Below the pieces are notes generated by a model that did no database searches, had not been told where the DNA came from, and saw only the letters and a list, made by a program, of their open reading frames with translations. A stretch of DNA of 60,588 bases, from the IMG/VR virus record IMGVR_UViG_3300032260_000003, positions 1 to 60,588 of that record; one strand, given 5' to 3'. The stretch's first letter is position 1. Each line of letters opens with the position of its first letter. This DNA comes from a virus (taxonomy: Duplodnaviria > Caudoviricetes). The translations under genes and the position numbers were made by a program. Positions 42,523-55,895 of the stretch are shown here, piece by piece.

Positions 42523-42620
42523 GGAATGGTTGCGGTCGTCTAGTGGTGAGGACGTCGGGCACGGCACTGTGCACATGCCCCACCCCGAAAACGCGGGTTC
42601 GAATCCCGCCCGCTTCCACC
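42523..42620 (+). ncRNA. tRNA-like RNA (His-like) with extended anticodon arm
   Basis: D arm GTCT-AGTGGTGA-GGAC; T arm GCGGG-TTCGAAT-CCCGC; TCGGG/CCCGA encloses 24 nt containing GGCA/TGCC and CTGTG; acceptor irregular. Confidence 0.75.
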
Positions 42621-42623
42621 TTT

Positions 42624-42684
42624 GAATGACGCTTTGGTGGAAAGGGTCGCACCCTTTTGCCGGTTCGAATCCGGCCGTCATTCC
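42624..42684 (+). ncRNA. D-armless 61-nt tRNA-like RNA
   Basis: GAATGACG/CGTCATTC 8 bp; GCCGG-TTCGAAT-CCGGC; AAAGGG-TCGCA-CCCTTT; D arm replaced by CTTTGGTG. Confidence 0.75.
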
Positions 42685-51410: not shown

Positions 51411-51775
51411 GCCGCCGGACGTTCTACATTCACGAGCGCAACATCGATCACGCCGAGGTGCAGGCCGTGACGTTCATGTTCGAGCCGACGAAGATGGGAT
51501 TCTGGCGAATCGGCGCCGCGATCTGCACGAGGGATGACAACTTCGATCGACGCATCGGTCGCGGTCGAGCGTTCTCACGTATTGTCCAACGTGCGTCGTC
51601 CTTGTATGCGTCGATGGGCGATCGCGACCTCGACGCGGCGCTGCGGAGATATCGCACGGGTCGCGAATTCGGCGATGCCACACAAGACGACGGGTGGCAT
51701 CTCGGATTTTTGTTGCAGTTATTCCATCTGGCGGTGCCGCACTACGACGGCCATGCAGACAAGCAGAGGATCTGA
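51407..51775 (+). CDS. Conserved phage protein
   Basis: GAAICTRDDNFDRRIGRGRA motif. Confidence 0.65.
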   Translation: MSRRTFYIHERNIDHAEVQAVTFMFEPTKMGFWRIGAAICTRDDNFDRRIGRGRAFSRIVQRASSLYASMGDRDLDAALRRYRTGREFGDATQDDGWHLGFLLQLFHLAVPHYDGHADKQRI

Positions 51776-52551
51776 TGGGTGCTGCCGCGTTTCCAATCAA
51801 GTACGTCGGATCGAAGGAAGGGATTCTTTCGAAGATTCTGCCGAAGATTCCGCCGAAGATCGACACGTACGGTGAGCCGTTCATGGGCGCCGCGCGCGTG
51901 TACTTCGCTATCCACGAGCGCGTGCGGAAGGCGCATCTGTGGGATATGAATCCAGCGCTCATCGCGTTCTGGCAGGCCGTTCGCAAGGACCCTGATGCGG
52001 TGTATCGCGACGTGAAGCAAATCGCGCGGTACTACGAAAAGATGGACGCCGCCGAGCAGGAAAAGTTCTTCTATCGGCTGCGGAAACGCTTCAATCGGGA
52101 TCAGACGGCTCGGCCGGAGCACTTTGTTTTCCTCAATCGCGCGTGCTTCAATGGACTGTATCGCGTGAATCGCAGGGGCGAGTTCAACGTTCCGTTCGGG
52201 AAGCGCGCGACGATTGCGCTGTACCCGAAGGGCTACTACCAGAAGCTCGCGAAAGCGTTGAAGAGGGCGTCTATCCGTCTCGGCGATTTTCGCGACTTTC
52301 CGTACGACCGGTGCGACTTCACGTACTTCGATCCGCCCTACGAAGACGTGTTCGATCTCTACACGTCGGGCCGGTTTCTCGAAGAGGACCACATGGATTT
52401 GTGCGAAACGTTCCTGAAGATTCCGCCGGGGTCTCGGCTGCTGTCGAATTCGATTCATGCGCGGCATCGGTATCCCGGCGGTCGCATCATTCAGGTGTCG
52501 CATTTCGTGAAGGGCGGCCGGTCGCCGGTCGAGGAGATTTTGGTTCAATGA
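51775..52551 (+). CDS. dam: Dam-family DNA adenine methyltransferase
   Basis: KYVGSK, EPFMGA, FNGLYRVNRRGEFNVPFG, YFDPPY. Confidence 0.92.
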   Translation: MGAAAFPIKYVGSKEGILSKILPKIPPKIDTYGEPFMGAARVYFAIHERVRKAHLWDMNPALIAFWQAVRKDPDAVYRDVKQIARYYEKMDAAEQEKFFYRLRKRFNRDQTARPEHFVFLNRACFNGLYRVNRRGEFNVPFGKRATIALYPKGYYQKLAKALKRASIRLGDFRDFPYDRCDFTYFDPPYEDVFDLYTSGRFLEEDHMDLCETFLKIPPGSRLLSNSIHARHRYPGGRIIQVSHFVKGGRSPVEEILVQ

Positions 52552-53165: not shown

Positions 53166-54023
53166 ATGAAGATGACTAAGAATGGCTCACCAACCCCCGG
53201 CATGTTTTACTGCGCGCGCGGCGAAGAATCGGCGCGAAAAACTGCGCCGCTTTCGTCCGACGAAACGCCGACGCCCGACGCCCCTGGATCCAAATCCGAA
53301 TTTCCGTCCAGATTCGGACCGAAAACCGCCCAAACTGATGAGGAGACAAAGACAGTGATCAACCGAAACGACGTCCGCGGCATCTACCCCTACGAATTGG
53401 CGCTGCTCAAACGTCTGCAACAACGCAACCAGACGTCGTGGGATCTGTACGTTCACATGTGCTCGATCACCCCGAACAAGTACGCCAGCGGCAAGCCGCG
53501 TTCGCCGATCAAGCAGTCGTCGATCACCTCCGGCTTGGGTTTTCTCCGGAGGAAGGGACTCTGCCGTGAGACGGAGGAGCGGCGCATCGGCGGAACTAAC
53601 GTGAAACTCGTCGTCAACGAAATCACGTTGCGAGGGAAAGAGTTGATCGCCGCCTTGCACGTTCAGGAATCGGAGCATTACGTCGGCGGTTTTCACATCC
53701 TGACGCCGAAAACCGATCTCGACCGATTGACGGCGGCTCGACGAAAGCGTCAGGCGGTGGCGATGATGCGCAAGGAAGCGAGCGCGAACCCGAAACCGGA
53801 AGTTCAGCCGGCGCAGTCGCCGCCGCTTTCGAGTGCCGCCCCGACACCGAGTCAGGTTGTCAATAAGTATCCGACTGCGCTGCCGGTTGCGATGGAGCTG
53901 GCGCAAACGCTGGAAACTTCCGAGCGCGACGTTGCGTTCACAGGGGTTGCGCGACTCGCCATCACCAAGATGTCGCCGGCCGCTCGCGTCGAATTCATCA
54001 CCGAATTGGTGGAGGCACTCTGA
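53166..54023 (+). CDS. Winged-helix-like DNA-binding protein
   Basis: SSITSGLGFLRRKGLCRETEERR..ITLRG. Confidence 0.55.
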   Translation: MKMTKNGSPTPGMFYCARGEESARKTAPLSSDETPTPDAPGSKSEFPSRFGPKTAQTDEETKTVINRNDVRGIYPYELALLKRLQQRNQTSWDLYVHMCSITPNKYASGKPRSPIKQSSITSGLGFLRRKGLCRETEERRIGGTNVKLVVNEITLRGKELIAALHVQESEHYVGGFHILTPKTDLDRLTAARRKRQAVAMMRKEASANPKPEVQPAQSPPLSSAAPTPSQVVNKYPTALPVAMELAQTLETSERDVAFTGVARLAITKMSPAARVEFITELVEAL

Positions 54024-54024
54024 A

Positions 54025-55398
54025 ATGGCTGTGCGAGCAAAAAAACCGGATCGAATCAAATCGATTGACCTCGCCTTCAAGGGCATCACGGGCAAGTTCG
54101 ACCTCGGGCCTCGGGTCGCGATCGTCGGCCCATCGCAGTCCGGCAAGTCGTCGCTGCTCGCCGGCATCATGATGGCCGGCACGAACAAGAAGACGTGGGG
54201 GAACGTGCCAGACAAGTTGAAGGCGGACGTGCTCAGTGCGCAGAATGCCGTTCCGTTCGGCAACAACGGCGCGCACGTGACGATGGAATTCATGAGCGGT
54301 CTCGAAGCGACGTGGACCGGCATCATCAAAGGGCGAAACAAGACGCCGACGGTGGAGCACGAACTCCCCGAGCGCATCGCTTCGAAGTTTCCGCAGACGG
54401 AGTACATGGGGCAGTACGTTAACGGTCCGCAGATTCTCGCCCGCAGCGTCATCTATCGGTTCGCCGATCCTGATGATGCGTTGGCGGCGTACGACGGCGC
54501 ACTCGGGAAGCTCAAGAAGAAGGATCAGCGTGTGATTCGGCCGATGTTGGACGGCGTTTCTTCCATCGTCGATGCGTGGACCAAACTCGCGAACATCTCG
54601 CGCGGCCAGTCGCAGTTGATCAACCTCGATTTGAAGACCGCGGACAAACTGCGTGCGACTCGACAGAAACTCGGATTCGACGGTGATGACGCTGCTGACG
54701 TGGTTGCCGAACTGTGGAATCTCAACAACCGTGTTCAGATGCTTTCGATCGGCAAAGAGCTGGTGTCTCGTGGAGATTGGGGCGCGGTTTTCATGGAGGA
54801 CGAATTGCCGGAATCGTTCAGCGATATGCTCAACACCGCGGTGGAGGAGTTGGACGATTACGGGCTCAATCATCGGGGCGCCAAAGAGTACGCGCTGCTG
54901 TCCCGGCAGATTCGAGAGGCGGAAAAATCCGTCGACGAAAAGATGCCGGCTCGCGCGGTGATTCAGAACGCCGCTGCGGTGTTTTCGATGGCGCTCGACG
55001 GACTCCTCTTGAAGGCGTCGACGGCGTTCACCGAGCGGATGAAGGACTTCTTGCCGACGCCGTTGAGCGCGGCGTTGGTTCCCGGCGGCGGCGGTGTTCG
55101 CTTCGGTCTGCGGACTTCGAAGAAGGGCCCGGTGTATCCGATGAACGGTCTGTGCGGGTACGAGCTGTCGTCCCTCCACATGGCGCTACCGCAGGCGTGG
55201 GCCACACCGGGGGTCAAACCCATCGTATTGCTCGACACGAAGCACCTCGAAGCTGACACGGCCGCCACGCGTAAGATGCTTTCGGTCATGTCGAAGCGCG
55301 TGGCCGATAAGAGTGTTGCGCAAATCGTCGTAACGTTGCATGCTGACCGCATCAAAGCGATTCCTGACAATTTTCAGGTTATCGAACTGGAAGGGTAA
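54025..55398 (+). CDS. SbcC/Rad50-like ABC ATPase
   Basis: IVGPSQSGKSS, short coiled region, LCGYE signature, IVLLD, VTLH. Confidence 0.7.
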   Translation: MAVRAKKPDRIKSIDLAFKGITGKFDLGPRVAIVGPSQSGKSSLLAGIMMAGTNKKTWGNVPDKLKADVLSAQNAVPFGNNGAHVTMEFMSGLEATWTGIIKGRNKTPTVEHELPERIASKFPQTEYMGQYVNGPQILARSVIYRFADPDDALAAYDGALGKLKKKDQRVIRPMLDGVSSIVDAWTKLANISRGQSQLINLDLKTADKLRATRQKLGFDGDDAADVVAELWNLNNRVQMLSIGKELVSRGDWGAVFMEDELPESFSDMLNTAVEELDDYGLNHRGAKEYALLSRQIREAEKSVDEKMPARAVIQNAAAVFSMALDGLLLKASTAFTERMKDFLPTPLSAALVPGGGGVRFGLRTSKKGPVYPMNGLCGYELSSLHMALPQAWATPGVKPIVLLDTKHLEADTAATRKMLSVMSKRVADKSVAQIVVTLHADRIKAIPDNFQVIELEG

Positions 55399-55403
55399 CC
55401 AAG

Positions 55404-55748
55404 ATGACGAAGACGAAGACGACGAACGATGCAGTGCCGAAAGCTCCGCGGCCCGGCTGCCACATCACGCCCGCGCACGCCAAGGCGATGAAGCGGCACA
55501 TTCGAACGACACGAAACCGAACGACCATCGCCGCCGTTGCGCGCGCCGCGAACATTTCGTGGGCTGCCGCGAACCGCTTCATCGCGAACAACAAAATCGA
55601 TCTCGAAGCGCCGCGCAATCGCGAGATGGAGAAGCGGAACGCCACCATCTTCAAGTTGTGCAAGAAACAGCCGCGAGCCGAAGTCGCCGCGACGTACGGA
55701 ATCACGGAGGCGCGCGTCGGAATGATCGTGCGGTCAATGTCGAGCTAA
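55404..55748 (+). CDS. HTH regulator (Mor-like C-terminus)
   Basis: RNATIF..AEVAATYGITEARVGMIV. Confidence 0.65.
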   Translation: MTKTKTTNDAVPKAPRPGCHITPAHAKAMKRHIRTTRNRTTIAAVARAANISWAAANRFIANNKIDLEAPRNREMEKRNATIFKLCKKQPRAEVAATYGITEARVGMIVRSMSS

Positions 55749-55755
55749 TCGATAG

Positions 55756-55891
55756 TGCTGGGTAGCTTAATCGGTAAAGCGCCACGCCCAATGGCATATG
55801 CGTCAGAGAGTCCAGGGCGTACGACAGGACTCTCGTACGATGCTTTTGTCGGGTGTGGAAGTTGGTAGGTTCGAGCCCCGCCCCCATGCGT
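55756..55891 (+). ncRNA. tRNA-like RNA whose anticodon loop is replaced by a 61-nt structured insert
   Basis: TA-GCTT-AATCGGTA-AAGC D arm; CCACGCCC/GGGTGTGG stem; GGTAGG-TTCGAGC-CCCGCC T arm; TGCTGGG/CCCATGCG acceptor with a bulge. Confidence 0.72.
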
Positions 55892-55895
55892 TCAT

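What the first reader, a model, noticed from the sequence alone, without database searches (positions are those of the whole stretch)
55756..55891. tRNA scaffold displaying a 61-nt, possibly switchable RNA domain
Seen: D and T arms flank an 8-bp stem whose loop (55790-55850) contains GGCAT/ATGCT and GAGAGTCC/GGACTCTC helices. The apical loop sequence CGTACGA (55818-55824) is complementary to TCGTACG (55833-55839), allowing an alternative fold. The layout resembles engineered tRNA-scaffold constructs. It has no U33 anticodon and no group I or BHB intron features. Inference: a natural tRNA chassis stabilising an aptamer, antitoxin or guide RNA.
Basis: partly seen in the sequence, partly recalled or inferred. 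Interest (0 to 1): 0.75.

Follow-up and report, generated by a model that had tools for sequence, protein, structure and literature searches.

The report
Phage tRNA-like gene with hairpin insert
An uncultured sediment phage carries a weak tRNA look-alike, probably derived from a tRNA-Asp gene, whose anticodon loop holds a stable hairpin of about 60 bases; the structure is real, but the proposed RNA switch is not supported and its function is untested.

Summary
The locus 55755-55890 is a tRNA-like gene. Its D arm and T loop are canonical, and an 8-bp stem closes a 61-nt insert. ARAGORN with introns allowed reads it as tRNA-Asp(GUC) with a 58-nt insert placed 5' of a UUGUCGG heptamer. The tRNA likeness is weak, however. 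Rfam's tRNA model gives 19.0 bits against a threshold of 29, and the acceptor and T stems are irregular.

The "switch" fails on energy. The alternative helix has a pairing probability of about 0, and forcing it costs 9.6 kcal/mol. I found no group I intron, no productive bulge-helix-bulge motif, no splicing endonuclease or RNA ligase, and no Ro60 gene.

The phage has almost no relatives, so no homologue of the element was found and covariation could not be tested. A second gene (42528-42620) carries a 17-nt hairpin at the same site, and three other tRNA-like genes also have abnormal anticodon regions.

My best reading is a non-decoding tRNA mimic with an extended anticodon arm (0.4). The main rival is a decaying tRNA gene (0.3). 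In three-dimensional layout it most resembles YrlA-type Y RNAs, but it fails their membership tests.

The parts
55755..55762 (+). Acceptor-stem 5' strand of the tRNA-like gene.
   Evidence: ARAGORN -i draws 8 pairs with 55882-55889, two of them mismatched and two G-U. RNAfold and Rfam prefer a register with a bulged U at 55887.
55765..55780 (+). D arm: a 4-bp stem and an 8-nt loop carrying A14, G18G19 and A21.
   Evidence: It aligns to Rfam tRNA model positions 10-25 without a mismatch.
55782..55789 (+). 5' strand of the 8-bp extended anticodon stem.
   Evidence: Pairs with 55851-55858; pair probabilities are 0.97-1.0.
55790..55850 (+). 61-nt insert enclosed by the 8-bp stem. ARAGORN places the 58-nt 'intron' at 55788-55845.
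   Evidence: Alone it folds at -22.2 kcal/mol, z = -2.49.
55806..55834 (+). Apical hairpin: an 8-bp helix with a 13-nt loop, extendable to 13 layers over 55801-55839 with two mismatches.
   Evidence: Pair probability about 1.0; listed as inverted repeat I2.
55818..55839 (+). Alternative 7-bp hairpin built from two copies of CGTACGA, followed by a short U run.
   Evidence: Flagged as terminator-like (2 sites found, 1.7 +/- 1.2 expected by chance). Pair probability about 0, and forcing it costs 9.6 kcal/mol.
55846..55852 (+). Heptamer UUGUCGG, read by ARAGORN as the anticodon loop of tRNA-Asp(GUC).
   Evidence: In the minimum-energy fold most of it is paired: UGUC with GGCA, probability 0.88-0.90.
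55851..55858 (+). 3' strand of the 8-bp extended anticodon stem.
55865..55881 (+). T arm: a 5-bp stem with one A-C mismatch and a UUCGAGC loop.
55882..55890 (+). Acceptor-stem 3' strand plus discriminator G. No CCA is encoded.
42528..42620 (+). Second insert-bearing tRNA-like gene of the same phage: Gly(CCC)-like, with a 17-nt hairpin in the anticodon loop and two U-U mismatches in the acceptor stem.
   Evidence: ARAGORN -i; Rfam tRNA 43.6 bits with a 23-nt local insert; fold.
56082..56160 (+). Neighbouring tRNA gene with an 8-nt anticodon loop, in the same non-coding stretch.
   Evidence: ARAGORN; Rfam tRNA 33.1 bits.

Best explanation
The locus is a gene for a tRNA-shaped RNA that no longer decodes. 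It derives from a phage tRNA-Asp(GUC)-type gene. The D arm, T loop and an acceptor-like stem are kept, but the anticodon arm has become a roughly 77-nt irregular hairpin. From the base outwards this hairpin runs: 8 bp, a 3-nt bulge, 4 bp, a 3x3 internal loop, 5 bp, a 1-nt bulge, 8 bp and a 13-nt loop.

Inferred steps:
- It is transcribed with the upstream helix-turn-helix gene, which ends 7 nt before it.
- It is probably cut out by the host's tRNA end-processing enzymes.
- It persists as a stable RNA of about 135 nt in which the tRNA core gives processing and stability, and the long arm is a docking site for a protein.

It is one of several tRNA-like genes in this phage whose anticodon region is abnormal.

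Shown: the sequence anatomy, the single dominant fold, the non-coding context, and the absence of known intron types.
Inferred: transcription, processing, stability and any binding partner.
For: - tRNA core bases and arms are present.
- Short-insert tRNA calls are rare in shuffles: 1 in 60 shuffled genomes against 2 in the real one.
- The 8-bp stem and the apical helix have pairing probabilities of 0.97-1.0, so there is one dominant fold that continues the anticodon stem as a long arm.
- The insert is more stable than 98% of 500 shuffles.
- The locus lies in a non-coding stretch. The minus-strand ORFs across it score -0.19 bits per codon, against +0.34 for true frames.
- It starts 7 nt after the stop codon of the gene at 55404-55748.
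- A 67-nt interruption of the anticodon loop is incompatible with decoding unless it is removed. No removal route was found: no group I match, no productive bulge-helix-bulge motif, and no tRNA_int_endo, RtcB or RNA_ligase domain in the record.
- The same phage holds a second tRNA-like gene with a hairpin at the same site, a D-armless mini tRNA-like element at 42624-42684 (z = -2.64), and tRNA genes with 6-nt and 8-nt anticodon loops.
- Elsewhere, tRNA-shaped RNAs with 30-60-nt inserts in or near the anticodon arm lie beside Ro60/TROVE or DUF2828 genes in 7 of the 26 metagenome loci hit by a D-arm/T-loop pattern. tRNA bodies carrying an extra protein-binding module therefore do occur in nature.
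Against: - No homologue of the element was found, so there is no covariation or conservation evidence.
- Rfam's tRNA score is below threshold: 19.0 against 29 bits.
- The acceptor stem needs either two mismatches or a bulge, and the T stem has an A-C mismatch. RNase P and RNase Z processing is therefore not assured.
- Irregularities are spread over most of this phage's tRNA-like genes. Two of them lack G18G19, and one has U56. This fits decay as well as it fits specialisation.
- No partner protein is identified: no TROVE or DUF2828 in the record.
- No promoter-like site was found.
Confidence: 0.4

Rival explanations
1. Decaying tRNA gene. A former phage tRNA-Asp gene was inactivated by a palindromic insertion in the anticodon loop and by later point changes. 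It has no present function.
For: - The tRNA score is sub-threshold.
- The acceptor and T stems are irregular and no CCA is encoded.
- Most other tRNA-like genes of this phage are also aberrant, including in core positions.
- Both inserts contain perfect 8-nt DNA palindromes, GCATATGC and TGTGCACA. DNA-level events such as template switching tend to produce such palindromes; that point is my own inference.
- The exons still resemble a canonical tRNA-Asp(GUC) from another contig: 28 of 30 and 33 of 40 aligned bases. 17 of the first 30 were fixed by the search pattern.
Against: - Phage genomes are compact and tend to lose dead DNA (general knowledge).
- The insert extends the anticodon stem coaxially with three extra G-C pairs, and it is unusually stable. 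A random insertion would rarely do this.
- Two genes carry a hairpin at the same site.
- The D-loop and T-loop tertiary bases of this gene are all intact.
Confidence: 0.3
2. Intron-containing tRNA-Asp(GUC). The 58 nt at 55788-55845 are removed after transcription by a route not yet known in bacteria. This would give a 78-nt tRNA with anticodon loop UUGUCGG.
For: - ARAGORN -i finds a full cloverleaf after removal, with U33, GUC, a purine at position 37 and discriminator G.
- A second gene has an insert at the same place.
- The start of the insert pairs with loop positions 37-38, as intron-anticodon pairing does in known tRNA introns (the comparison is recalled).
Against: - The host looks bacterial. 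The tRNA-Met has C1xA72 and A11:U24. Shine-Dalgarno-like motifs precede 18 of 31 gene starts, against a 15% background.
- 58 nt is too short for a group I intron, and no Rfam intron or ribozyme family matches.
- No bulge-helix-bulge excision yields a tRNA.
- No splicing endonuclease, RtcB or RNA ligase is encoded in the record, although the record is only 58% complete.
- ARAGORN picks intron borders to optimise the loop, so a good loop is weak evidence.
- The 'spliced' Gly-like gene would have C33.
Confidence: 0.12
3. Regulatory switch or attenuator. The two mutually exclusive hairpins (55806-55834 against 55818-55839 plus the U run) toggle transcription termination or the function of the RNA.
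For: The second hairpin followed by ATGCTTTTGT is flagged as terminator-like. The two helices share bases, so they cannot coexist.
Against: - Pairing probability of the second helix is about 0, and forcing it costs 9.6 kcal/mol.
- The first helix is completed earlier during transcription, as the coordinates show.
- The count of terminator-like sites equals the chance expectation: 2 against 1.7 +/- 1.2.
- No riboswitch family matches.
Confidence: 0.03
4. The tRNA likeness is a coincidence, or the palindromes act as DNA sites, for example a protein operator at the convergent junction of two transcription units.
For: The locus is missed by the default tRNA finders. It lies between convergent gene blocks and holds several DNA palindromes.
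Against: - The D arm matches the tRNA model perfectly, the T loop is canonical and an acceptor pairing is present. Short-insert calls are rare in shuffles.
- It lies beside another tRNA gene.
- The palindromes do not recur elsewhere in the genome as a family.
Confidence: 0.08

Closest known systems
YrlA-type bacterial and phage Y RNAs, the tRNA-mimicking partners of Ro60/Rsr (passages read in PMC4201824 and PMC12135203).
   Same: Both have a tRNA-like D arm, T arm and acceptor-like stem, joined to a long irregular helix that leaves the body where the anticodon stem would be. Both are about 100-135 nt. Both occur in phages.
   Different: - YrlA is circularly permuted, in the order T arm, closed acceptor stem-loop, D arm, with its ends in the long helix. 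This RNA has the normal tRNA order, with the long helix closed by a loop.
- YrlA carries a GNCGAA/CGAA motif and lies within 4 kb of rsr on the same strand. This element has no CGAA, and the record has no TROVE gene.
- No Rfam match other than the weak tRNA one.
tRNA genes with introns: group I introns in bacteria, bulge-helix-bulge introns in archaea and eukaryotes.
   Same: There is an insertion in the anticodon loop that pairs with loop bases. ARAGORN can restore a full cloverleaf with a GUC anticodon by removing it.
   Different: The insert is too short for a group I intron and has no group I core. The bulges lie on the wrong sides of the 4-bp helix for a bulge-helix-bulge motif, and no such excision yields a tRNA. 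The host appears bacterial, and no splicing enzymes are encoded.
Engineered tRNA scaffolds for expressing recombinant RNA (Ponchon and Dardel; recalled, not read here).
   Same: The anticodon loop is replaced by a foreign structured RNA closed by the anticodon stem, with the acceptor, D and T arms kept.
   Different: Scaffolds use an intact, efficiently processed tRNA body. Here the acceptor and T stems are irregular and the tRNA score is sub-threshold. This is a natural sequence with an unknown 'cargo'.
Aberrant or pseudo tRNA genes of phages (general knowledge), and phage tRNAs with altered anticodon loops (PMC10264068; I searched it for six terms and found none of them).
   Same: It is a phage-borne tRNA-like gene with a non-standard anticodon region, in a genome holding several such genes.
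   Different: The known cases are substitutions in a 7-nt loop. Here the loop is interrupted by a hairpin of about 60 nt. The words insertion, intron and decoy do not occur in that paper.

Membership tests
tRNA (Rfam RF00005) | Covariance-model score at or above the gathering threshold (29 bits). | tested here: not met
   No match at gathering, nor at E <= 10 in a 701-nt search. The score is 19.0 bits, E 0.082, model positions 4-67, when 151 nt are searched alone.
tRNA (Rfam RF00005) | D-arm and T-loop core bases: U8, A14, G18G19, A21, U54U55C56, A58. | tested here: met
tRNA (Rfam RF00005) | A 7-nt anticodon loop on a 5-bp stem. | tested here: not met
   67 nt lie between the strands of the 5-bp stem, or 61 nt inside the 8-bp stem.
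tRNA (Rfam RF00005) | A regular 7-bp acceptor stem. | tested here: not met
   Either two mismatches plus two G-U pairs (ARAGORN), or a bulged U (RNAfold and Rfam register).
Group I intron in a tRNA gene | A conserved catalytic core (Rfam Intron_gpI), usually 200 nt or more. | tested here: not met
   The insert is 58-61 nt. No Rfam match at E <= 10.
Bulge-helix-bulge tRNA intron | Two 3-nt bulges, each 3' of a strand of a 4-bp helix, whose cleavage restores a 7-nt loop. The geometry is recalled from the literature. | tested here: not met
   9 loose candidate motifs were found in the locus, and none gives a tRNA that ARAGORN recognises after excision. In the minimum-energy fold the outer bulge is on the 5' strand.
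Bulge-helix-bulge tRNA intron | A splicing endonuclease and an RNA ligase are available. | tested here: inconclusive
   No tRNA_int_endo, RtcB or RNA_ligase in the record. However, the record is only 58% complete and the host is unknown.
YrlA-type Y RNA | Encoded within about 4 kb of a Ro60/TROVE gene, on the same strand (PMC4201824 passages). | tested here: not met
   No TROVE or DUF2828 match at E <= 1 in all six frames of the record. The record is 58% complete.
YrlA-type Y RNA | A GNCGAA(N)G or CGAA motif in the Ro-binding module (PMC4201824 and PMC12135203 passages). | tested here: not met
   There is no CGAA in 55755-55890. The nearest strings are ACGAC and ACGAU.
YrlA-type Y RNA | Permuted order: T arm, closed acceptor stem-loop, D arm. 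| tested here: not met
   The order here is acceptor 5' strand, D arm, long arm, T arm, acceptor 3' strand.
YrlA-type Y RNA | A tRNA-like D and T arm pair able to form the elbow. | tested here: met
Riboswitch or attenuator-type RNA switch | Two mutually exclusive folds of comparable stability, or a known aptamer. | tested here: not met
   The energy difference is 9.6 kcal/mol and the alternative helix has probability about 0. No aptamer family matches.

The most novel reading that the evidence does not exclude
This phage makes a small set of non-decoding tRNA mimics. The 55755-55890 RNA would be an unpermuted counterpart of a Y RNA: a tRNA body, processed like a tRNA, whose extended anticodon arm recruits or sequesters a host or phage RNA-binding protein. 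Candidate partners include a Ro60-like ring protein, a tRNA-targeting defence nuclease or a tRNA-modifying enzyme.

The Ro60-linked, insert-bearing tRNA-shaped RNAs seen in the metagenome loci (L003, L008, L014, L025 and others) would belong to the same design principle.
Probability: 0.2. Interest if true: 0.7.

Novelty: new variant of a known kind. Interest (0 to 1): 0.4.

Why it matters
If the RNA is made and stable, it would be a natural example of a tRNA body carrying an unrelated folded domain in place of the anticodon loop, in a bacteriophage and without any known intron machinery. That would extend the short list of bacterial and phage tRNA mimics (tmRNA, YrlA). It would also bear on how phages deal with host systems that read or cut tRNAs. 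If it is only a dying tRNA gene, it mainly serves as a caution for intron-aware tRNA finders on phage genomes.

Tried and rejected
Searches for relatives of the element or the phage, all without a useful result:
- blastn of 54000-57500 against 50,697 phage records gave no match.
- The exact 29-nt apical-hairpin string gave 0 hits in viral contigs.
- The neighbouring proteins gave no relatives in viral contigs.
- The 521-aa neighbouring ORF found only itself among the word-sharing candidates. A full HMMER search of its 457-aa form found 12 proteins at E <= 0.001, the best at 27% identity.
- The portal protein has one relative at 56% identity on a 3.6-kb contig that I could not fetch, and one at 28%. 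The portal alignment gave none in viral contigs.
- A pattern based on the D arm of the Gly-like gene gave 0 hits.
- A D-arm-plus-stem pattern in viral contigs gave 2 contigs, both ordinary tRNA-Gly(GCC).
- The genome-contig scan gave 1 locus, a chance D-arm-like string beside an ordinary tRNA-Asn.

Expression: no RNA holder was listed. The only listed run is a DNA run that may be the source sample. Laying it showed one identical contig and no variant lacking the insert.

Other ideas tested and dropped:
- Bulge-helix-bulge splicing: rejected.
- Minus-strand ORFs 55702-56145 and 55803-56105: rejected as non-coding.
- Antisense targets in the phage genome: none beyond chance.
- A family of GGCA...TGCY hairpins, prompted by both inserts starting GGCA and ending UGCY: not enriched, 88 found against about 125 in shuffles. 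I treat the shared ends as a possible coincidence.
- The neighbouring 457-aa protein as a Ro60 or an anticodon nuclease: it is an ABC/SMC-type ATPase with only weak hits.
- The 566-aa ORF: nothing usable from the ESM Atlas.
- Alignment of the insert with that of L023: not alignable.
- MAFFT alignment with canonical tRNAs failed across the gap, so I replaced it with half-by-half alignment.

Supplementary tables of PMC4201824, which list the phage YrlA RNAs, were not seen and might include unpermuted forms.

Full report
**Context.** The window is a whole virus record of 60,588 bases. It is classed as linear and about 58% complete. It encodes a tape-measure protein, portal, major head protein, DNA polymerase, helicase and primase, so it is a tailed phage.

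The host looks bacterial:
- The tRNA-Met gene has the C1xA72 mismatch and A11:U24 pair of bacterial initiators. This is my reading; the rule itself is recalled.
- Shine-Dalgarno-like motifs precede 18 of 31 candidate gene starts, against a 15% background.

The phage is nearly an orphan:
- No nucleotide match among 50,697 phage records.
- Major head protein hits in 91 phage records, all below 60% identity (27.9-33.3% among the 25 records listed).
- One portal relative at 56% identity on a short contig.
- Nothing in viral contigs.
- The only sequencing run that holds the locus is a DNA run of a sediment metagenome, which may be its source.

**The observation.** The locus has these features:
- A perfect tRNA D arm, 55765-55780.
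- A canonical T loop on a 5-bp stem with one A-C mismatch, 55865-55881.
- End strands that pair as an acceptor stem.
- An 8-bp stem, 55782-55789 with 55851-55858, enclosing 61 nt.

ARAGORN with introns allowed reads 55755-55890 as tRNA-Asp(GUC) with a 58-nt insert at 55788-55845, placed just 5' of a heptamer UUGUCGG.

The tRNA likeness is beyond chance. In 60 dinucleotide shuffles of the genome, ARAGORN -i made 12 intron calls, but only one had an insert of 100 nt or less. The real genome has two.

The likeness is also weak:
- Default ARAGORN and Rfam at its gathering threshold both miss the locus.
- Searched alone, the 151-nt stretch scores 19.0 bits against a threshold of 29, over model positions 4-67 with a 67-nt local insert.
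- The acceptor stem needs either two mismatches or a bulged U.
- No CCA is encoded.

**The fold and the 'switch'.** The minimum-energy fold (-52.4 kcal/mol) continues the anticodon stem into one long irregular arm. From the base outwards it runs: 8 bp, an AAU bulge, 4 bp (GGCA with UGUC, which sequesters the GUC), a 3x3 internal loop, 5 bp, a 1-nt bulge, the 8-bp GAGAGUCC/GGACUCUC helix and a 13-nt loop.
- The 8-bp stem and the apical helix have pairing probabilities of 0.97-1.0.
- The alternative CGUACGA/UCGUACG helix has a probability of about 0, and forcing it costs 9.6 kcal/mol.
- That hairpin plus the short U run is picked up as terminator-like, but such sites are no more frequent than in shuffles: 2 found, 1.7 +/- 1.2 expected.
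- The insert alone is more stable than 98% of 500 shuffles (z = -2.49). The whole element is not exceptional (z = -1.55).

The structured domain is therefore real. The switch is not supported.

**What it is not.**
- No Rfam family other than the weak tRNA match reaches E <= 10, so there is no group I intron, small ribozyme, riboswitch or Y RNA model match.
- A scan for bulge-helix-bulge motifs found only loose candidates, and none restores a tRNA on excision, for this gene or for the Gly-like one.
- The record encodes no tRNA splicing endonuclease, RtcB, RNA ligase, TROVE or DUF2828 domain in any frame. Thirty-six ORFs scanned against Pfam or PHROGs showed none either. The missing 42% of the genome leaves this open.
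- The minus-strand ORFs over the locus are non-coding by codon score.
- The insert has no complementarity elsewhere in the genome beyond an 11-nt match with E 1.6.

**Company in the same genome.**
- A second gene, 42528-42620, scores 43.6 bits as tRNA. It carries a 17-nt hairpin in the anticodon loop and two U-U mismatches in the acceptor stem.
- Directly after it lies a D-armless mini tRNA-like element at 42624-42684: an acceptor-like stem, a hairpin and a T arm (z = -2.64).
- The genes at 2163-2232 and 56082-56160 have 6-nt and 8-nt anticodon loops.
- The Ile(AAU) gene has U56 and lacks G18G19.
- Only the tRNA-Met gene is fully canonical.
- Both inserts start GGCA and end UGCY, and each holds a perfect 8-nt palindrome. 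GGCA-based hairpins are not enriched in the genome, so this may be coincidence.

**Leads from other sequences.** A pattern made of this gene's D arm, 71-101 free bases and a T-loop start found 26 metagenome loci. ARAGORN -i read them as follows:

| Reading | Loci |
|---|---|
| Insert-bearing tRNA (two of these look like tandem tRNAs misread) | 14 |
| Tandem tRNAs | 4 |
| One ordinary tRNA only | 5 |
| No call | 3 |

- Rfam calls nine long (117-136 nt) matches in L001, L002, L003, L008, L018, L023 and L025 tRNA, at 30-55 bits.
- Seven of the 26 loci have a Ro60/TROVE-like gene (L003, L005, L007, L008, L014) or a DUF2828 gene (L022, L025) within about 1.1 kb on the same strand.
- Passages I read in PMC4201824 describe YrlA Y RNAs as tRNA mimics encoded near Ro60. 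They have a permuted order (T arm, closed acceptor stem-loop, D arm) and a GNCGAA motif. PMC12135203 names a CGAA motif for the Y-like RNAs of a Thermus phage.
- The RNAs in L003, L014, L008 and L025 have the normal tRNA order with the extra domain in or beside the anticodon arm. I did not see this arrangement described in the passages I read. The papers' supplements were closed.
- L023 (57% G+C) is the closest in design to the window's element. It has a clean cloverleaf, a 10-bp stem and a 56-nt two-hairpin insert at the same position. The inserts do not align, and no Ro-like gene is in view.
- L013, L021 and L026 are ordinary bulge-helix-bulge cases that give tRNA-Met on excision.
- The exons of the window's element resemble a canonical tRNA-Asp(GUC) in L004: 28 of 30 and 33 of 40 aligned bases. 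17 of the first 30 were fixed by the pattern. This supports an origin from a tRNA-Asp-type gene by insertion.

**Reading.** The most likely account (0.4) is a non-decoding tRNA mimic. It would be co-transcribed with the upstream helix-turn-helix gene and excised by tRNA end-processing. It would be stabilised by its tRNA core, with the long anticodon-arm extension serving as a binding module. Only the anatomy, the single fold and the non-coding context are shown; the rest is inferred.

Rivals:
- A decaying tRNA gene hit by a palindromic insertion (0.3). This is favoured by the spread of defects over the phage's tRNA-like genes.
- A tRNA-Asp with a short intron removed by an unknown bacterial or phage route (0.12).
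- DNA-level function or coincidence (0.08).
- A switch or attenuator (0.03).

In layout the RNA works most like a YrlA-type Y RNA and looks like an engineered tRNA scaffold. It fails the membership tests for Y RNAs (no Ro60 gene nearby, no CGAA, not permuted), for known intron classes, and for Rfam tRNA itself.

**Verdict.** The locus is a real, unusual tRNA-derived gene. I class it as a new variant of a known kind, with moderate interest (0.4).

Noticed in passing
window 42528-42620: A Gly(CCC)-like tRNA gene (Rfam 43.6 bits) with a 17-nt hairpin in the anticodon loop, two U-U mismatches in the acceptor stem, and no U33 even after removal of the insert.
   Followed up: partly
window 42624-42684: A mini tRNA-like element without a D arm: an 8-bp acceptor-like stem, an 8-bp hairpin and a canonical T arm (-25.6 kcal/mol, z = -2.64). 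It sits directly after the Gly-like gene.
   Followed up: partly
window 56082-56160: A tRNA gene (Rfam 33.1 bits) with an 8-nt anticodon loop. ARAGORN reads a 4-base anticodon, AUUC. It could be a quadruplet or frameshift-type tRNA, or simply aberrant.
   Followed up: no
window 2163-2311: Two adjacent tRNA genes. The first has a 6-nt anticodon loop. The second is Ile(AAU), with a pyrimidine at position 37, U56 in the T loop and no G18G19.
   Followed up: no
window 55749-56267: About 520 nt with no convincing coding frame, between convergent gene blocks. It holds both tRNA-like genes and a 9-bp hairpin at about 55934-55963.
   Followed up: partly
window 54025-55398: An orphan 457-aa ABC/SMC-type ATPase two genes upstream of the element. 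It has weak hits to ABC_tran, SMC_N and the PADLOC model mad3. In 1.84 billion representative proteins it has only 12 relatives at E <= 0.001.
   Followed up: partly
window 51694-52551: A D12-class N6-adenine DNA methyltransferase (Pfam, E 3.6e-37).
   Followed up: no
L003:2018-2281, L014:940-1197, L008:10448-10583, L025:3194-3314; also L005, L007, L022: tRNA-shaped RNAs in the normal (unpermuted) arm order, carrying 30-60-nt extra domains in or beside the anticodon arm. They lie within about 1.1 kb, on the same strand, of Ro60/TROVE or DUF2828 genes. The two copies within L003 share insert motifs, as do the two within L014. They are possibly an unpermuted form of Y RNA.
   Followed up: partly
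L023:3419-3549 (minus strand): A clean tRNA cloverleaf in a 57% G+C contig, with a 10-bp anticodon stem enclosing a 56-nt two-hairpin insert at the same site as in the window. A MYG1-family exonuclease gene lies about 1.6 kb away.
   Followed up: partly
L001:1653-1905: Two adjacent insert-bearing tRNA genes, Leu(CAA) with 53 nt and Asn(GUU) with 46 nt (Rfam 50.9 and 41.9 bits), inside a cluster of ordinary tRNA genes on an AT-rich 3.7-kb contig.
   Followed up: no
L013, L021, L026: Three near-identical loci from large contigs, in which a bulge-helix-bulge excision of 48 nt yields tRNA-Met(CAU). They are probably ordinary archaeal or eukaryotic intron-bearing tRNA genes.
   Followed up: no
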